This document shows, in pieces, positions 7,265-10,856 of a stretch of DNA of 24,536 nucleotides. The notes beneath the pieces were generated by a model, which was not told the DNA's origin, did no database searches, and saw only the letters and a list, made by a program, of their open reading frames with translations. The DNA is from Victivallaceae bacterium (GTDB taxonomy: Bacteria > Verrucomicrobiota > Lentisphaeria > Victivallales > Victivallaceae), in the NCBI GenBank assembly GCA_041668685.1, contig JBAYCO010000001.1:1-24536 (forward strand), written 5' to 3'. Position 1 is the first letter of the stretch, and each line of letters opens with the position of its first letter. Both the position numbers and the translations under genes were made by a program.

Positions 7265-7338
7265 AACCCCGTGGTGTAATGGTAGCACAAGTGGTTTTGG
7301 TCCACTTAGTCTAGGTTCGAATCCTGGCGGGGTTGCCA
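7265..7338 (+). tRNA. tRNA-Gln (anticodon TTG), CCA encoded
   Basis: Acceptor AACCCCG/CGGGGTT; D arm GTGT-AATGGTA-GCAC; anticodon arm AGTGG-TTTTGGT-CCACT; T arm CTAGG-TTCGAAT-CCTGG; discriminator G then CCA. Confidence 0.96.
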
Positions 7339-7339
7339 G
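7289..7339 (+). repeat. attL: 51-bp direct repeat (3' part of tRNA-Gln)
   Basis: AAGTGGTTTTGGTCCACTTAGTCTAGGTTCGAATCCTGGCGGGGTTGCCAG, identical to 10806-10856. Confidence 0.95.
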
Positions 7340-7420
7340 CTTTTTCGCCTCAAAATCGCACTTTTTCAAGATTTTTTCTCATCGCTTCTCAGCCCTTCTT
7401 TTGCCCTCTCTGACGCTCGA

Positions 7421-7461
7421 AAAGCATACAAAAAGCATACAAACGCGATTTTGTAGGCTTT
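7421..7461. promoter_or_regulatory. Candidate integrase arm-type binding sites (P' arm)
   Basis: AAAGCATACAA twice in tandem (7421-7431, 7432-7442) plus an inverted copy TTGTAGGCTTT (7451-7461, reverse complement AAAGCCTACAA). Confidence 0.65.
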
Positions 7462-7660
7462 TTGAGCTCAAAATACAAAAAATCAGACAATCGTTTTTAT
7501 CCGTAGGCAGAATACAATTACGAATGTGAGCTCGAACCGATAATTTCTTATGCCGCTTTGGATGAGGAATTCGATGACAAGCTTGCTCAAATGATAACCG
7601 AAAACGGGAAATTGTGCAAATGCAAAAACTTTGCAGAGAATAAAAGTTAGTTTAAGGCAT

Positions 7661-8002
7661 CTACTTTTTAGTTTGATCTGCCTGCTGTCTGTCAATTTCC
7701 GCCGGGGTTTTGATTTCTTCAATGTACTGTAAAACTTTCAGGCGGTTGCTTCTGCCGAGACATTTCCATTCGCTGAGTAATTCCGAAGTTAAGCGGTCGA
7801 ATTCATCAATATTTACGCCTGTCGGGGATTTCAATATGCTTTTGATTATTCTTTTATTGCCGGCTCTAAGTTTTACTTTACCGGTCAGCCAGCGATATAA
7901 GCTTTCGCGGGTAACTCCGAGGAGATTGGCCAGTTCAGCTTGAGTCAGATTATGAGTTTCACGATATTCGGCTAATTTATTGAGCAATGTTGCATCATCC
8001 AT
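7661..8002 (-). CDS. XRE/Cro-C1-family helix-turn-helix regulator, 113 aa (start reassigned to ATG 8002)
   Basis: LAEYRETHNLTQAELANLLGVTRESLYRWLTGK; GGAG RBS upstream of ATG 8002. Confidence 0.85.
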   Translation of the reverse strand: MDDATLLNKLAEYRETHNLTQAELANLLGVTRESLYRWLTGKVKLRAGNKRIIKSILKSPTGVNIDEFDRLTSELLSEWKCLGRSNRLKVLQYIEEIKTPAEIDRQQADQTKK

Positions 8003-8023
8003 GATATTATCTCCATTAAATAT

Positions 8024-8049
8024 TGTTATATAATATGTATTATACAACA
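8024..8049. promoter_or_regulatory. Imperfect palindrome upstream of the XRE gene (candidate operator, back-to-back TATAAT boxes)
   Basis: TGTTATATAAT-atgt-ATTATACAACA: 11-bp arms with 1 mismatch. Confidence 0.45.
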
Positions 8050-8152
8050 TATCCATAAAAAATCCACTAAAATATTGCAAAATATAAAACATTCAGCGTA
8101 TAAAGATAGTTTTATTTATCATTTATGCAGCATGGAGAAAGTTGCATCAGGA

Positions 8153-9304
8153 TTAATTTATTTCCGTTTTCGTTGTTTCTATGAACTTTCGCTCTTTTTC
8201 TATTTCGAGAGACAATTCTTCTTCGCTTGGCAGGAAATCCAGATACTTCGATGCAAAAATCTGTTTGCTTTCGTTCAACACGGAATATTTCGCCACGGTT
8301 TCACTTTTGCTTGAACATAAAATCAGACCCACTGTCGGGTTATCGCCTTCGACTTTAAAACGGTCTTCAAACAGACGAACATAACCGTCCATTTGCCCGA
8401 CATCCTGATGGGTGAGTTTCCCAAGCTTGAGATCAATAAGCAGGAAGCATTTCAGAATAAAATTGTAGAACACTAGATCAACATAAAAATCATCGTCATC
8501 AATTTTGATATGTTTCTGCCTGGCGACAAAAGAAAAACCTTTACCAAGTTCCAGAAGAAACGACTGCAGATTATCTATTATCGCCTGTTCGAGATGAGAT
8601 TCATGGAGTTTGGGATTATCCGGCAAATCCAGAAATTCGAGCACCATCGGGGATTTCAGAATATGAACAGGTGACAACCGTTCACCCGGAAGGCATTCAT
8701 GTTTGTCCGGAAGTAAACCGTTTTCTCCTTGATTGGCAATAATCCTTTCATAATATGACGTATGTATTTGGCGTTCCAGTTGGCTTTTGCTCCAGCCGCA
8801 TTCGGCAGCTTCGTGCTCATAGAATTTTCTGGCCTCTTCGTTTTTTACTCGCATTAATGCCCGGTAATGTGACCATGAAAGGTTTGAATTGAATCCAGTT
8901 GTGAATTCGCTACCCGACGGGTAGCATTTTGTAAGCGGAGCTAATTCTCGCTCTGGTGGGGCGAGTTTTTGAATATTTCCCAATTCGCTACCCGACGGGT
9001 AGCGAATTCCAGCCAACTTATCTGCATAAATCAAATAAAACTGTCTAAAATTTTTCAAATTAGGAACGGAAAAACCTGAACCATAGCGGCTATTCAATTT
9101 ATCTGAAAGTTCTTCTATAACCTGTTTCCCGTATTCCGCGCGTTCCTCACCACTCTGGATATTCTCAACAATTTCCCTGCCGATAAGCCAGTAGGCGATC
9201 ACCATATTTGAATTGACCGACCGAACCACATTGTTCCGTGCTTCTTCAAGGATGGATACTATCCGTTCAAAAAGATGAGTTGTTTTGGTTATATCACTTT
9301 TCAT
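8153..9304 (-). CDS. yhcG: YhcG / DUF1016 family PD-(D/E)XK nuclease-domain protein, 383 aa
   Basis: N-terminal VNSNMVIAYWLIGREIVE...YGKQVIEELS...GFS..NL..FRQFY; LSWSHYRALM; WSKSQLERQI; LEFL; FLLELGKGFSFVARQ; YVDLVFYN...LIDLK...DVGQMDGYV; VGLILC. Confidence 0.92.
   Translation of the reverse strand: MKSDITKTTHLFERIVSILEEARNNVVRSVNSNMVIAYWLIGREIVENIQSGEERAEYGKQVIEELSDKLNSRYGSGFSVPNLKNFRQFYLIYADKLAGIRYPSGSELGNIQKLAPPERELAPLTKCYPSGSEFTTGFNSNLSWSHYRALMRVKNEEARKFYEHEAAECGWSKSQLERQIHTSYYERIIANQGENGLLPDKHECLPGERLSPVHILKSPMVLEFLDLPDNPKLHESHLEQAIIDNLQSFLLELGKGFSFVARQKHIKIDDDDFYVDLVFYNFILKCFLLIDLKLGKLTHQDVGQMDGYVRLFEDRFKVEGDNPTVGLILCSSKSETVAKYSVLNESKQIFASKYLDFLPSEEELSLEIEKERKFIETTKTEIN
8904..9008. repeat. 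Three in-frame 39-bp-period units inside yhcG, each carrying a 27-bp (quasi-)palindrome
   Basis: Units start with AATTC at 8904, 8943 and 8982; palindrome centres at 8917, 8956 and 8995. 8982-9008 is a perfect AATTCGCTACCCG-a-CGGGTAGCGAATT. 8904-8925 equals 8982-9003 (22 bp). Confidence 0.9.
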
Positions 9305-9340
9305 TTTCTTAGCTCCGCTGATATGTCATAGAAGAAACTA

Positions 9341-9369
9341 AACATATATGGTTAGTAAGGTTTTCGCAA
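9341..9369 (-). promoter_or_regulatory. Candidate sigma70 promoter for yhcG
   Basis: Minus strand TTGCGA-N17-TATGTT, 36 bp upstream of the ATG; GGAG RBS present. Confidence 0.4.
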
Positions 9370-9409
9370 ATAAAATCGCCATATTTCATTAATAAAAATC
9401 CCACCTATT

Positions 9410-10696
9410 TTAGCCGGAAACTATTTCCAGTATCTGTCTTTCGGTATCCGTTAAAACTGCTTTGGTATTCAATATGCTGGAAATTTTCCGGATTTTTTCG
9501 CCGTCTGTTTCATGTAGTGTATTTTCTCCCTGCGGCAAGGCGTTGATCGCTTGTCTTGCCGCGCCTTCTCCGATATGGACATAATGCCGGGTAATGGCGG
9601 GACTGCCGTGTCCGACGATTGACTGGACTACCGGCATGGGAACTCCGGCTTTGGCGCAGAATGATACAAAGGAATGCCGGAATGAATGAAAACCGTAGAC
9701 GTTTGCCTTCCTTTTTCGACGTTGTCCGTTTTCAATTTCCTGATTAAGCTCCAAACCTACAAACTTAAACACCTTGGCAGTAGCAGCCGGAACTGAATAA
9801 TAATTTTCAAAATATCTTCTGGCTAAGTTAGGCATGACAAAATCATTGTTTTTCCATTCCAGAGCTGAAATCAGTTTTTCCCGCAAAAGCGGATGAATTG
9901 GGACATTAACCGTTCTTTTTATCCTTTTCGTCTTTTGAGGCATACAGAAAATGATGTTTCTTTCCAGATTGATATTTTCCCATTTCATTAATACACAGTC
10001 TATGAGCCGCAAACCTGTCCAAGCGCCAAGATGGAAGAGAACTTCCATTTCCTCTTTATCTTCCAGAATGAGATCGGAGTCTTTGAAGGAATTCAGGATT
10101 TCAATTACCTGAAGCTCTGAAAATTCTTTTCTTGAAAGTTTATTTTCTATTTTCCTGCCGATTGAATCGAAAGGATTGTCGTCCAGTCCGGCTTTTTTCT
10201 GCAAATGTTTGATTATTAGTTTTATCGCCTGAATATGGGTATTGAAAGTTTTGCCGGATATCCCTTTATTCCAAATATAGTCCGCGTATTCCACAGCGAT
10301 ATCCTCAGTAAGTCTTCCCAATTCCTGAATAGCAGGATAATTGACCGCTAGCCATTGTTTGAAGCGGGAAAAATATTGTCCATAGCGTTTTAAAGTTTCA
10401 GGGCCTGAATCCGGTCTGGTTGGAGTTTTAAGAAATAATTCCCATACCTGAGACAGCTTTATTGATTTTTTTGCTACGAGTTTCCTGGCTGTAGCGACAT
10501 TGAATATCACTTTTTCTTTTGTATCAGCGATAAGGGCCGGTTCCAGAATTTCTTTGGCTCTTTTCTGGGCTTCCGTTTCTATTCTTGTCTTTAAGGATTG
10601 AACAAAGCGTTTGCCATTAATATTGTATTGCAAATAAAATATCTTGCCGCGCTTGAAAATATGTCCCTTGCCTTTTGCCGTGCCCTTTTTTGCCAT
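9410..10696 (-). CDS. Tyrosine recombinase / phage-type integrase, 428 aa (start reassigned to MAKKG, ATG 10696)
   Basis: N-terminal arm-binding-like GKGHIFKRGKIFYLQYNINGKR. Catalytic motifs TGLR, HSFRH and IVGH...ITRHY (R, H-x-x-R, H, Y). GGGGA RBS. Confidence 0.95.
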   Translation of the reverse strand: MAKKGTAKGKGHIFKRGKIFYLQYNINGKRFVQSLKTRIETEAQKRAKEILEPALIADTKEKVIFNVATARKLVAKKSIKLSQVWELFLKTPTRPDSGPETLKRYGQYFSRFKQWLAVNYPAIQELGRLTEDIAVEYADYIWNKGISGKTFNTHIQAIKLIIKHLQKKAGLDDNPFDSIGRKIENKLSRKEFSELQVIEILNSFKDSDLILEDKEEMEVLFHLGAWTGLRLIDCVLMKWENINLERNIIFCMPQKTKRIKRTVNVPIHPLLREKLISALEWKNNDFVMPNLARRYFENYYSVPAATAKVFKFVGLELNQEIENGQRRKRKANVYGFHSFRHSFVSFCAKAGVPMPVVQSIVGHGSPAITRHYVHIGEGAARQAINALPQGENTLHETDGEKIRKISSILNTKAVLTDTERQILEIVSG

Positions 10697-10738
10697 GATG
10701 CGTTCCCCATATTTACGGTCATTGCTTTTCTGTTCTTT

Positions 10739-10767
10739 ATTATACAGGCAGAAAAAAGTAAAAGCAA
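10739..10767 (-). promoter_or_regulatory. Integrase promoter
   Basis: Minus strand TTGCTT (10767-10762), 17-bp spacer, TATAAT (10744-10739). Confidence 0.65.
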
Positions 10768-10782
10768 GCAAAAGGCATACAA
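10761..10782. promoter_or_regulatory. Candidate integrase arm-type binding sites (P arm)
   Basis: Tandem AAAGCAAGCAA (10761-10771) and AAGGCATACAA (10772-10782), matching the AAAGCATACAA units near attL at 9/11 and 10/11. Confidence 0.6.
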
Positions 10783-10805
10783 AATACTTAATTTTAGTTC
10801 AAAAT

Positions 10806-10856
10806 AAGTGGTTTTGGTCCACTTAGTCTAGGTTCGAATCCTGGCGGGGTTGCCAG
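10806..10856 (+). repeat. attR: duplicated 3' part of tRNA-Gln (51 bp)
   Basis: Identical to 7289-7339; lacks the acceptor 5' strand and the D arm. Confidence 0.95.

What the first reader, a model, noticed from the sequence alone, without database searches (positions are those of the whole stretch)
7289..10856. Complete-looking but minimal 3.5-kb integrative element: integrase, YhcG nuclease and XRE only
Seen: identical 51-bp att repeats, an intact-looking integrase with catalytic R, H-x-x-R, H and Y, all three genes on the minus strand, and no recognisable replication, relaxase, capsid or excisionase gene. Established: YhcG/DUF1016 genes are often found beside integrases in mobile elements and their role is uncharacterised. 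Inference: either a self-contained mini-island class (selfish, satellite or defence cassette with YhcG as sole cargo, or YhcG acting in recombination or maintenance) or the eroded core of a larger island. Conserved att, candidate arm sites and promoter favour current activity.
Basis: partly seen in the sequence, partly recalled or inferred. Interest (0 to 1): 0.7.

Follow-up and report, generated by a model that had tools for sequence, protein, structure and literature searches.

The report
Truncated tRNA-Gln island with YhcG
This is a real 3.5-kb foreign insert in a glutamine tRNA gene of a landfill Victivallaceae bacterium, but it is most likely the recently cut-down end of a longer mobile island, keeping the integrase, a candidate defence nuclease and a regulator, and not a new class of minimal element.

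Summary
An exact 51-bp repeat (7289-7339 and 10806-10856) made of the 3' part of tRNA-Gln(UUG) brackets three intact minus-strand genes. These are a tyrosine integrase, a full-length YhcG/DUF1016 nuclease (PADLOC candidate PDC-S02) and an XRE regulator. The segment has low GC (0.36-0.43 against about 0.50-0.52 in the flanks).

The element is not pristine. Positions 7507-7650 (+) hold only the last 47 codons of a small gene. That gene is intact beside an 86%-identical XRE copy elsewhere in the same genome, and intact in JGI contigs that carry the same trio at 88% nucleotide identity. Homology to those contigs runs from 10856 down to 7506 and stops inside that gene. There the trio continues into a long stretch that ends, about 24 kb beyond the small gene, with a TrwC relaxase; no second tRNA copy is seen.

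All three genes are under strong purifying selection (dN/dS 0.03-0.12). Both arms carry family-typical AAGCATACAA repeats, so excision may still be possible. This could not be tested, because only k=31 contigs were available.

Sister integrases (75-88% identical) sit next to other single candidate-defence cargos. The integrase-adjacent defence slot is therefore real, and the "mini-island class" reading is not excluded.

Verdict: new member of a known kind, of modest interest.

The parts
7265..7338 (+). Intact tRNA-Gln(UUG) gene. Its 3' 50 nt lie in the left repeat.
   Evidence: ARAGORN. It is the only tRNA-Gln(ttg) in the genome.
7289..7339 (+). attL copy of the 51-nt direct repeat (the overlap region O).
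   Evidence: the repeat finder D1, 100% identity. Only two copies exist in the genome.
7340..7506 (+). Left (P') arm. It holds a tRNA-trailer-like stretch (7348-7406) and then tandem AAGCATACAA arm-type repeats at 7422 and 7433, with an inverted 1-mismatch copy at 7451.
   Evidence: Motif scan. A 25-nt stretch is identical to the repeats upstream of the integrase on contig C46. The same geometry (full tRNA, about 85 nt, then the repeats) occurs at the tRNA-Pro attL on contig C229. The 7348-7406 stretch recurs in C481, in G006 and in L026.
7507..7650 (+). 3' remnant (47 codons plus stop, no start codon) of a small Cys-rich gene. The deletion or recombination scar lies at 7506/7507.
   Evidence: The gene is intact, at 98 aa, in own-genome contig C569 (L002:666-962) and at 78 aa in L036. 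Homology to L036 ends at 7506. dN is 0.05 against dS of at least 0.54.
7661..8002 (-). XRE-family HTH regulator (113 aa from the ATG at 8002; upstream in-frame starts give 131-143 aa).
   Evidence: Pfam HTH_3, 6e-8. A paralogue with 86% aa identity lies on C569. dN/dS against L036 is 0.115.
8153..9304 (-). YhcG/DUF1016 PD-(D/E)XK nuclease, full length. This is the candidate defence cargo.
   Evidence: Pfam DUF1016_N plus YhcG_C. PADLOC PDC-S02, 3e-136. All family-invariant residues are kept, including E252, D276 and D291-x-K293. dN/dS is 0.117.
8903..9009 (.). Palindromic 22-23-nt repeats inside the hypervariable YhcG linker.
   Evidence: the repeat finder D5 and I3. The linker (residues about 100-137) varies in every homologue.
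9410..10696 (-). Tyrosine integrase (428 aa) at the attR end, transcribed inward.
   Evidence: PF00589, phrog_1, catalytic R230/H337/R340/H363/Y372 by XerD alignment. dN/dS is 0.033.
10697..10805 (.). Right (P) arm and integrase upstream region, with a degenerate copy of the arm repeat at 10760-10783.
   Evidence: the repeat finder D4 and motif scan. The region is 92.7% conserved in L036 and L025.
10806..10856 (+). attR copy of the 51-nt repeat: a partial, non-functional tRNA-Gln 3' part.
   Evidence: the repeat finder D1. ARAGORN calls no tRNA here.

Best explanation
The segment is a genuine genomic island in a Victivallaceae (Lentisphaerota) genome from landfill metagenomes. A tyrosine integrase inserted it into the 3' half of tRNA-Gln(UUG). 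The island belongs to a lineage-specific family with a fixed layout. A full tRNA is followed by an element-supplied trailer and AAGCATACAA arm repeats (attL). At the other end the integrase gene reads inward, preceded by the same repeats and a partial tRNA copy (attR). The window's copy keeps both att sites, both arms, the integrase, and the two integrase-proximal genes: yhcG, a PD-(D/E)XK nuclease listed as a candidate single-gene phage defence, and an XRE regulator. Everything between the left arm and the middle of a small gene has been lost in one recent internal deletion, with its junction at 7506/7507. In relatives, the same int-yhcG-XRE module continues through the intact small gene into a long stretch with a glycan-utilisation operon and a TrwC relaxase. 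The window's element is therefore a stub of a longer, probably mobilisable island. It may still excise and re-insert through its integrase, but it carries no transfer functions. Shown: the anatomy, the truncation, the collinearity with relatives and the purifying selection. Inferred: the size and nature of the ancestor, present-day excision, and a defence role for YhcG.
For: (1) Anatomy.
(2) Truncated gene: only the last 47 codons, with no start, lie at 7507-7650. The intact gene sits convergent to an 86%-identical XRE copy on own-genome contig C569, and window-C569 homology breaks abruptly at about 7508.
(3) JGI contigs L036-L041 and L046 carry partial tRNA-Gln, int, yhcG and XRE. L036 is 88.4% identical to the window over 3362 bp (10856 down to 7506). 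It continues with the intact 78-aa gene, then DHDPS, sulfatase, GH95, GH42 and GntR genes, and a TrwC relaxase (PF08751). No second tRNA-Gln occurs within about 24 kb beyond the small gene.
(4) In complete genome G005 the small gene lies between a TraG/TrwB coupling protein and an integrase, in two copies, so it is a mobile-element gene.
(5) Family att layout, verified within the same genome: the tRNA-Pro(ggg) island has its attL on C229 (full tRNA, about 85 nt, then AAAGCATACA three times). Its attR is on C46 (int, AAAGCATACAA twice, then a 47-nt partial tRNA-Pro). The window has both halves of this layout.
(6) dN/dS against L036 is 0.033 for int, 0.117 for yhcG and 0.115 for xre. The gene fragment has dN 0.05 against dS of at least 0.54, so it was under constraint until recently.
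(7) tRNA-Gln loci of four related species (G005, G006, G019, G020) have no int or yhcG.
(8) The own genome has nine or more integrase paralogues, several beside tRNAs, and four or more TrwC homologues.
Against: The far (attL) end of the relatives' island was not reached. It is therefore not shown that the glycan operon and TrwC belong to one element with the trio. Sister integrases (75-88% aa identity) occur as int plus one or two cargo genes followed directly by host genes, so very small elements do exist in this clade. The perfect 51/51 repeat and the intact genes would equally fit a functional minimal element. The sequence just after the intact tRNA (7348-7406) resembles the sequence after the unoccupied-looking tRNA-Gln of G006. 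I read this as an element-supplied trailer, but I cannot prove it.
Confidence: 0.62

Rival explanations
1. Self-contained mini-island: int-yhcG-XRE with its two arms is the whole natural element, an ultra-compact integrative defence cassette that still excises and integrates. The gene fragment is incidental captured DNA.
For: The 51-bp repeats are perfect, and arm repeats occur at both ends. All three genes are intact and under purifying selection. The trio is conserved at about 88% nt identity in three lineages with three different flanks beyond att: window, L025 and L036. Sister integrases sit in int plus single-cargo units carrying PADLOC candidates PDC-S01 and PDC-M59 or an AlbA_2/Schlafen ATPase, with a conserved end of about 200 bp.
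Against: No second DR-bounded copy of the trio was found. In L036 only 12 bp separate the XRE stop from the small gene, and no att copy lies there. Joining a canonical P' arm to a 5'-truncated gene is most simply explained by an internal deletion. The 200-bp end of the sister elements is absent from the window and from the whole genome. None of the 24 best yhcG loci in the order has this integrase, or the XRE, within 1.5 kb.
Confidence: 0.2
2. Fixed, immobile remnant: the stub no longer excises, for example because its recombination directionality factor was lost with the deleted part. int, yhcG and XRE are kept only because they serve the host, in defence or regulation.
For: The same integrated form appears in four public assemblies. 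In three landfill runs from different studies (2018, 2019, 2024), element pieces are at depths similar to the flanks. No excisionase is recognisable. The small mobile-element gene next to XRE is destroyed.
Against: The attR tRNA fragment is not under tRNA selection, yet it is still 51/51 identical to attL. The integrase has the strongest constraint of the three genes, dN/dS 0.033. The available data (k=31 contigs) could not have shown excision even if it occurs.
Confidence: 0.3
3. Imprecise excision: the trio moved to tRNA-Gln from an L036-like locus and took 143 bp of the neighbouring gene along. The fragment would then be transduced flank DNA and not a deletion scar.
For: The fragment is collinear with the L036 and C569 neighbours.
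Against: Sequence beyond att in L036 has no similarity to window 7340-7506. The window's left arm has the family-typical P' geometry. Imprecise excision from a locus lacking that arm would not supply it.
Confidence: 0.1

Closest known systems
tRNA-integrated genomic islands with a tyrosine (phage-type) integrase
   Same: The integrase is PF00589 with the full catalytic set. Insertion is into the 3' part of a tRNA gene, which is regenerated. A direct repeat of the tRNA 3' end bounds the island, GC is lower than in the flanks, and the island is absent from the same tRNA in related species.
   Different: The integrase sits at the end far from the intact tRNA, next to the partial copy, and reads inward. 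The island is only 3.5 kb and carries an internal gene remnant. The integrase clade is confined to Victivallales/Lentisphaerota in the database hits that carry names.
Integrative mobilisable or conjugative elements (IME/ICE) with a TrwC-type relaxase, and their decayed remnants
   Same: The homologous trio in JGI contigs is contiguous with a TrwC relaxase preceded by iteron-like repeats. The small gene lies next to a type IV coupling protein and an integrase in G005. The own genome holds several TrwC homologues.
   Different: The window's element itself has no relaxase, coupling protein or recognisable oriT. It is not shown that the relaxase and the trio in the relatives form one element.
PADLOC phage-defence candidate PDC-S02 (YhcG/DUF1016, COG4804 PD-(D/E)XK nucleases)
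   Same: The whole protein matches PDC-S02 models (3e-136) and both Pfam domains, and the nuclease motif is intact. DUF1016 genes are reported next to type I and type II restriction-modification loci (PMC9881135).
   Different: No defence activity has been shown for the family. One PDC-S02 representative tested in E. coli B against T4, T5 and T7 was not among the four of eight candidates that protected (bioRxiv 10.1101/2024.09.26.614923). Here the gene is paired with an integrase and an XRE regulator, not with a restriction-modification system.
Defence-gene hotspots of integrative elements (variable cargo slots in P4-like satellites and SXT-type ICEs; recalled from memory, not tested here)
   Same: At one fixed position, directly downstream of closely related integrases, different candidate defence genes alternate: PDC-S02, PDC-S01, PDC-M59A/B and an AlbA_2/Schlafen ATPase.
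   Different: These elements are far smaller, have no capsid-hijacking or conjugation genes next to the slot, and come from an unrelated phylum. No defence phenotype is known for any of these cargos.

Membership tests
Tyrosine recombinase / phage integrase (PF00589) | Catalytic-domain match above the curated threshold | tested here: met
   PF00589 at 60 bits against a cut-off of 27.1; phrog_1 at 1e-44.
Tyrosine recombinase / phage integrase (PF00589) | Catalytic residues R, H-x-x-R, H/W and the nucleophile Y | tested here: met
   R230, H337, R340, H363 and Y372 align with the XerD (1a0p) motifs. The catalytic Lys was not located.
tRNA-integrated genomic island | Direct repeats formed by the tRNA 3' part, with an intact tRNA at one end | tested here: met
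   Exact 51-nt repeat, with an intact tRNA-Gln at the left end.
tRNA-integrated genomic island | Absent from the same tRNA locus in related genomes; atypical composition | tested here: met
   No int or yhcG downstream of tRNA-Gln in G005, G006, G019 and G020. GC is 0.36-0.43 against about 0.50-0.52. The right-flank genes are not syntenic in the relatives, so no exact empty site is available.
tRNA-integrated genomic island | Demonstrated excision (circle and empty site) | tested here: inconclusive
   Only Logan k=31 contigs could be laid, and they break at the 51-bp repeat. attB and attP junction patterns gave 0 hits in JGI contigs.
ICE / IME | Relaxase, oriT and, for an ICE, a coupling protein and type IV secretion genes within the element | tested here: not met
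   None lies within 7289-10856. A TrwC relaxase lies about 24 kb beyond the small gene in the homologous JGI contig.
YhcG / DUF1016 | DUF1016_N plus the YhcG_C PDDEXK domain, full length, with conserved E...D...(D/E)xK residues | tested here: met
   all invariant columns of a 10-sequence alignment are kept.
PADLOC PDC-S02 candidate defence system | Match to the PDC-S02 profile | tested here: met
   PDLC04807, 3.1e-136.
PADLOC PDC-S02 candidate defence system | Protection against phage or plasmid | not testable with these tools
   The only published test found was negative for one representative against T4, T5 and T7.
Prophage or phage satellite | Capsid, terminase, replication or hijacking genes | tested here: not met
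   PHROGs hits are limited to the integrase, a regulator and one family of unknown function.
Type II toxin-antitoxin pair (XRE as antitoxin) | An adjacent co-oriented toxin gene | tested here: not met
   Matches to antitoxin HTH models are weak and below cut-off. The only neighbour is the convergent truncated small gene, which has no toxin family hit.

The most novel reading that the evidence does not exclude
The integrase clade defines a family of ultra-compact integrative cassettes (about 1.7-3.5 kb) in Victivallales. Each is an integrase plus one exchangeable candidate-defence gene (PDC-S02 YhcG, PDC-S01 AAA_14/DUF4143, PDC-M59 Fic pair, or an AlbA_2/Schlafen ATPase) between conserved ends. 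Cargo would be swapped at a breakpoint in the integrase 3' end. Under this reading the window's element is a working member that can hop between tRNA sites and the ends of larger islands.
Probability: 0.2. Interest if true: 0.65.

Novelty: new member of a known kind. Interest (0 to 1): 0.35.

Why it matters
It shows that a "complete-looking minimal element" can be a recent deletion derivative, and that only comparison with relatives revealed the 143-bp gene scar. It gives a first concrete att layout for a tRNA-targeting island family in Lentisphaerota, a phylum whose mobile elements are hardly described. That layout is a full tRNA, an element-supplied trailer and AAGCATACAA repeats at one end, and an inward-reading integrase, the repeats and a partial tRNA at the other. 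It also places YhcG/DUF1016, a very widespread and highly conserved but functionally untested nuclease, in an integrase-adjacent slot. In sister elements that slot holds other unvalidated PADLOC candidates. This offers a small, clonable, natural context (int, yhcG and XRE in 3.5 kb) for testing both excision and defence.

Tried and rejected
**Read evidence for a circle or an empty site.** The four runs laid (X1-X4) are kept only as Logan contigs with k=31. These break at the 51-bp repeat, and no joint was reported, so excision was neither shown nor excluded. Exact-pattern scans of JGI metagenome contigs for the attB junction (tRNA 5' part, 51 nt, right flank) and the attP junction (right end, 51 nt, left end) both gave 0 hits.

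**Empty site in relatives.**
- The right-flank genes (TIM-barrel and DUF4127) are missing or not syntenic in same-genus genomes.
- The gene downstream of tRNA-Gln in G006 lies on another contig (C17) in the window's genome, with no related flank.
- The look-up of encoding contigs had no record of the exact TIM-barrel protein.

**Searches that found nothing useful.**
- The search for related loci with the integrase in genome contigs returned nothing.
- A 21-nt left-arm pattern in genome contigs found only G006 and chance hits.
- No direct repeats flank the sister elements L026, L029, L031, L034 and L035. Only a weak 10-bp candidate exists in L033.

**Features not confirmed.** The promoter scan was not above shuffled expectation. 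YhcG has no solved structure detectable by sequence. The small gene has no Pfam, PHROGs or PADLOC hit. The Atlas look-alikes (DUF8270, mostly viral, score 0.92) are only a lead.

**Readings considered and rejected.**
- Assembly artefact: four other assemblies agree.
- Prophage or satellite: no structural or replication genes.
- A general yhcG-integrase pairing in the order: none of the 24 best yhcG loci has this integrase or the XRE within 1.5 kb. This was tested with one query only.
Full report
**1. What is there.**
The window comes from a Victivallaceae (Victivallales, Lentisphaerota) metagenome-assembled genome of 4.1 Mb in 613 contigs. The taxon follows from the names carried by integrase homologues and by one related genome record. 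Near-identical DNA is held by landfill metagenome runs.

ARAGORN finds one tRNA in the window, tRNA-Gln(ttg) at 7265-7338 on the + strand. The repeat finder gives an exact 51-nt direct repeat at 7289-7339 and 10806-10856. These are the only two copies in the genome.

Three minus-strand genes lie between the repeats:

| Gene | Coordinates | Size | Evidence |
|---|---|---|---|
| Tyrosine integrase | 9410-10696 | 428 aa | PF00589 |
| YhcG nuclease | 8153-9304 | 383 aa | DUF1016_N plus YhcG_C |
| XRE regulator | 7661-8002 | 113 aa | HTH_3 |

Alignment with XerD places the integrase catalytic residues at R230, H337, R340, H363 and Y372. YhcG is full length and keeps every invariant column of a ten-sequence alignment, including E252, D276 and D291-x-K293. 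Its linker (about residues 100-137, where the palindromic repeats at 8903-9009 lie) is hypervariable in all homologues.

GC is 0.36-0.43 inside against about 0.50-0.52 in the flanks. The flanks hold ordinary host genes:
- Left: Lgt and a VCA0040-like protein.
- Right: a TIM-barrel protein and DUF4127.

Four other public assemblies carry the identical arrangement.

**2. The element is not pristine.**
Downstream of XRE, on the + strand, 7507-7650 encodes 47 codons and a stop. There is no start codon, and a TAG stands immediately before.

The same genome has a second XRE copy (86% aa identity) on contig C569. There the convergent neighbour is an intact 98-aa Cys-rich gene followed by a DHDPS-family gene. 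Window-C569 homology runs from about 8160 to about 7508 and then stops abruptly.

JGI contigs (L036-L041, L046) from five JGI samples and two SRA runs carry a partial tRNA-Gln copy, int, yhcG (87% aa identity) and XRE. L036 matches the window at 88.4% nucleotide identity over 3362 bp, exactly 10856 down to 7506. L036 then continues with the intact 78-aa gene.

Walking that contig gives, in order:
- DHDPS, a 100-aa ORF, a sulfatase, a GFO/IDH oxidoreductase and four genes of uncertain function.
- GH95, URO-D, GH42, a pilin-like protein and a GntR regulator.
- A TrwC relaxase of 897 aa (PF08751), preceded by iteron-like repeats.

No second tRNA-Gln occurs within about 24 kb beyond the small gene.

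In the complete same-genus genome G005, the small gene lies between a TraG/TrwB coupling protein and a tyrosine integrase, in two copies. It therefore behaves as a mobile-element gene.

A gene fragment cannot be ancestral to the complete gene in the same collinear position. The window's form is thus derived by loss of everything between its left arm and codon 32 of that gene.

**3. The left arm is a real element arm.**
The sequence after the intact tRNA (7340-7506) contains tandem AAGCATACAA repeats at 7422 and 7433. A degenerate copy lies 22 nt before the right repeat, upstream of int.

The same genome offers a control, an island in tRNA-Pro(ggg) split over two contigs:
- C229 holds the full tRNA, about 85 nt of trailer, and then AAAGCATACA three times.
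- C46 holds an integrase reading inward, AAAGCATACAA twice (25 nt identical to the window's), and a 47-nt partial tRNA-Pro.

The window shows both halves of this layout, only 3.5 kb apart.

Many tRNAs of this genome are followed by a T-run and CCTCAAA. The element's trailer has the same motif, which fits an element that must supply a new 3' end and trailer for the tRNA it interrupts.

One point stays open. The stretch 7348-7406 also follows the apparently unoccupied tRNA-Gln of G006. It also follows a partial tRNA-Gln in L026 and an 11-nt tRNA-like end on contig C481. I read this as arm DNA, or its remnants.

**4. Selection.**
Between the window and L036, dS is 0.37-0.69. The ratios are:

| Gene | dN/dS |
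|---|---|
| int | 0.033 |
| yhcG | 0.117 |
| xre | 0.115 |

The 47-codon fragment has dN 0.05 against dS of at least 0.54, so it evolved as a coding gene for most of that time. The deletion is therefore recent.

The trio exists in three lineages, each about 12% diverged from the others. Each has a different sequence beyond att: the window, L025 and L036. It is a conserved functional module.

**5. Wider family.**
The integrase clade has 180 hits at E no greater than 1e-30, and those that carry names are Victivallales or Lentisphaerota.

Its nearest members sit directly upstream of different single cargos:

| Loci | Integrase identity | Cargo | PADLOC match |
|---|---|---|---|
| L026, L034 | 81-88% | AlbA_2/HATPase_c_4 protein | weak hits only |
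| L029 (next to tRNA-Glu) | 83% | AAA_14/DUF4143 plus an HTH protein | PDC-S01, 9e-179 |
| L031, L033 (L033 at the same tRNA-Glu site) | 80% | Fic protein plus a 339-aa partner | PDC-M59A/B |
| L035 | 75% | none | not applicable |

These share a conserved end of about 200 bp after the cargo. That end also occurs twice around hipBA in G005, but it is absent from the window's genome.

The integrase-adjacent slot therefore takes candidate defence genes, and very small elements do exist in the clade. The mini-island reading keeps some probability for that reason.

In the order as a whole, yhcG is common (76 of 251 genomes, often in several copies). None of the 24 best loci has this integrase or the XRE within 1.5 kb.

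**6. Function of YhcG.**
It matches PADLOC candidate PDC-S02 at 3e-136. DUF1016 genes are enriched next to invertible type I and type II restriction-modification loci (PMC9881135).

One PDC-S02 representative was tested in E. coli B against T4, T5 and T7. It was not among the four of eight candidates that protected (bioRxiv 10.1101/2024.09.26.614923).

Homologues at about 70% identity occur across many phyla. This fits frequent transfer and strong constraint.

A defence or exclusion role is the best guess, but it is unproven.

**7. Activity.**
Excision could not be tested. All available runs are k=31 contigs that break at the 51-bp repeat. Junction patterns for attB and attP gave no hits in JGI contigs.

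In three landfill runs from different studies, contig pieces of the element and of the flanks are both present at similar depth. The promoter claim is not above chance.

**8. Verdict.**
This is a real tRNA-Gln island, and most likely (about 0.6) a recently truncated stub of a longer, probably mobilisable island. It retains its integration module, a candidate defence nuclease and a regulator. It is a new member of a known kind. Interest is modest, resting mainly on the family-level cargo slot and the clean att layout in an understudied phylum.

Noticed in passing
own genome contigs C229:2531-2712 and C46:6231-7692 (loci L054, L008): These are the two ends of one island in tRNA-Pro(ggg). attL has the full tRNA and three AAAGCATACA repeats. 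attR has an integrase, two repeats and a 47-nt partial tRNA-Pro. Cobalamin genes lie next to the integrase, and a PDC-S01 (AAA_14/DUF4143) gene lies beyond att.
   Followed up: partly
L026:12700-12940, L029:8220-8480, L031:3068-3226, L034:10700-10904, L035:9334-9492, L050:5599-5778 and 1337-1469: A conserved non-coding block of about 200 bp follows the variable cargo (or the integrase itself) in sister elements, and it brackets hipBA in genome G005. It could be a shared element arm or a cassette-type recombination site. It is absent from the window's genome.
   Followed up: partly
own genome, 3' trailers of about 15 of 40 tRNA genes (e.g. C6, C12, C13, C193, C209, C229, C491, C609): Many tRNAs are followed by a T-run and then (A/G)CCTCAAA. 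The element's own trailer at 7340-7356 has the same motif. It may be a native tRNA terminator or processing signal, or a common attachment core.
   Followed up: no
own genome C569 (L002/L061) 1-2040 and C304 (L058) 631-2004: Second and third copies of the small-gene plus DHDPS block. C569 also has an XRE copy, preceded by the C-terminus of a different gene where the window has yhcG. This may be a sibling element with another cargo.
   Followed up: partly
L052:1-800: Dense iteron-like direct and inverted repeats (GGGTACG and CGAACGTTCG types) lie just upstream of the TrwC relaxase, as expected for an oriT.
   Followed up: no
window 8903-9009: A 22-23-nt palindrome occurs twice inside the yhcG linker. 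The linker is the only hypervariable part of an otherwise extremely conserved protein, whose C-terminal domain is 85-90% identical across phyla.
   Followed up: partly
L025:1780-1816, L036:6425-6460, own genome C467 downstream of tRNA-Glu: A shared motif, CACAATTAGACGAAAC, directly follows tRNA 3' ends or att copies in three unrelated places. It may be the arm of another element family stacked at the same sites.
   Followed up: no
window 7348-7406; C481:2633-2691; L011:2553-2597; L026:9790-9832: The stretch of about 60 nt after the intact tRNA-Gln recurs in three other places: after the tRNA-Gln of G006 with no integrase nearby, after a partial tRNA-Gln in L026, and after an 11-nt tRNA-like end on C481. 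Whether its origin is element or host is unresolved.
   Followed up: partly
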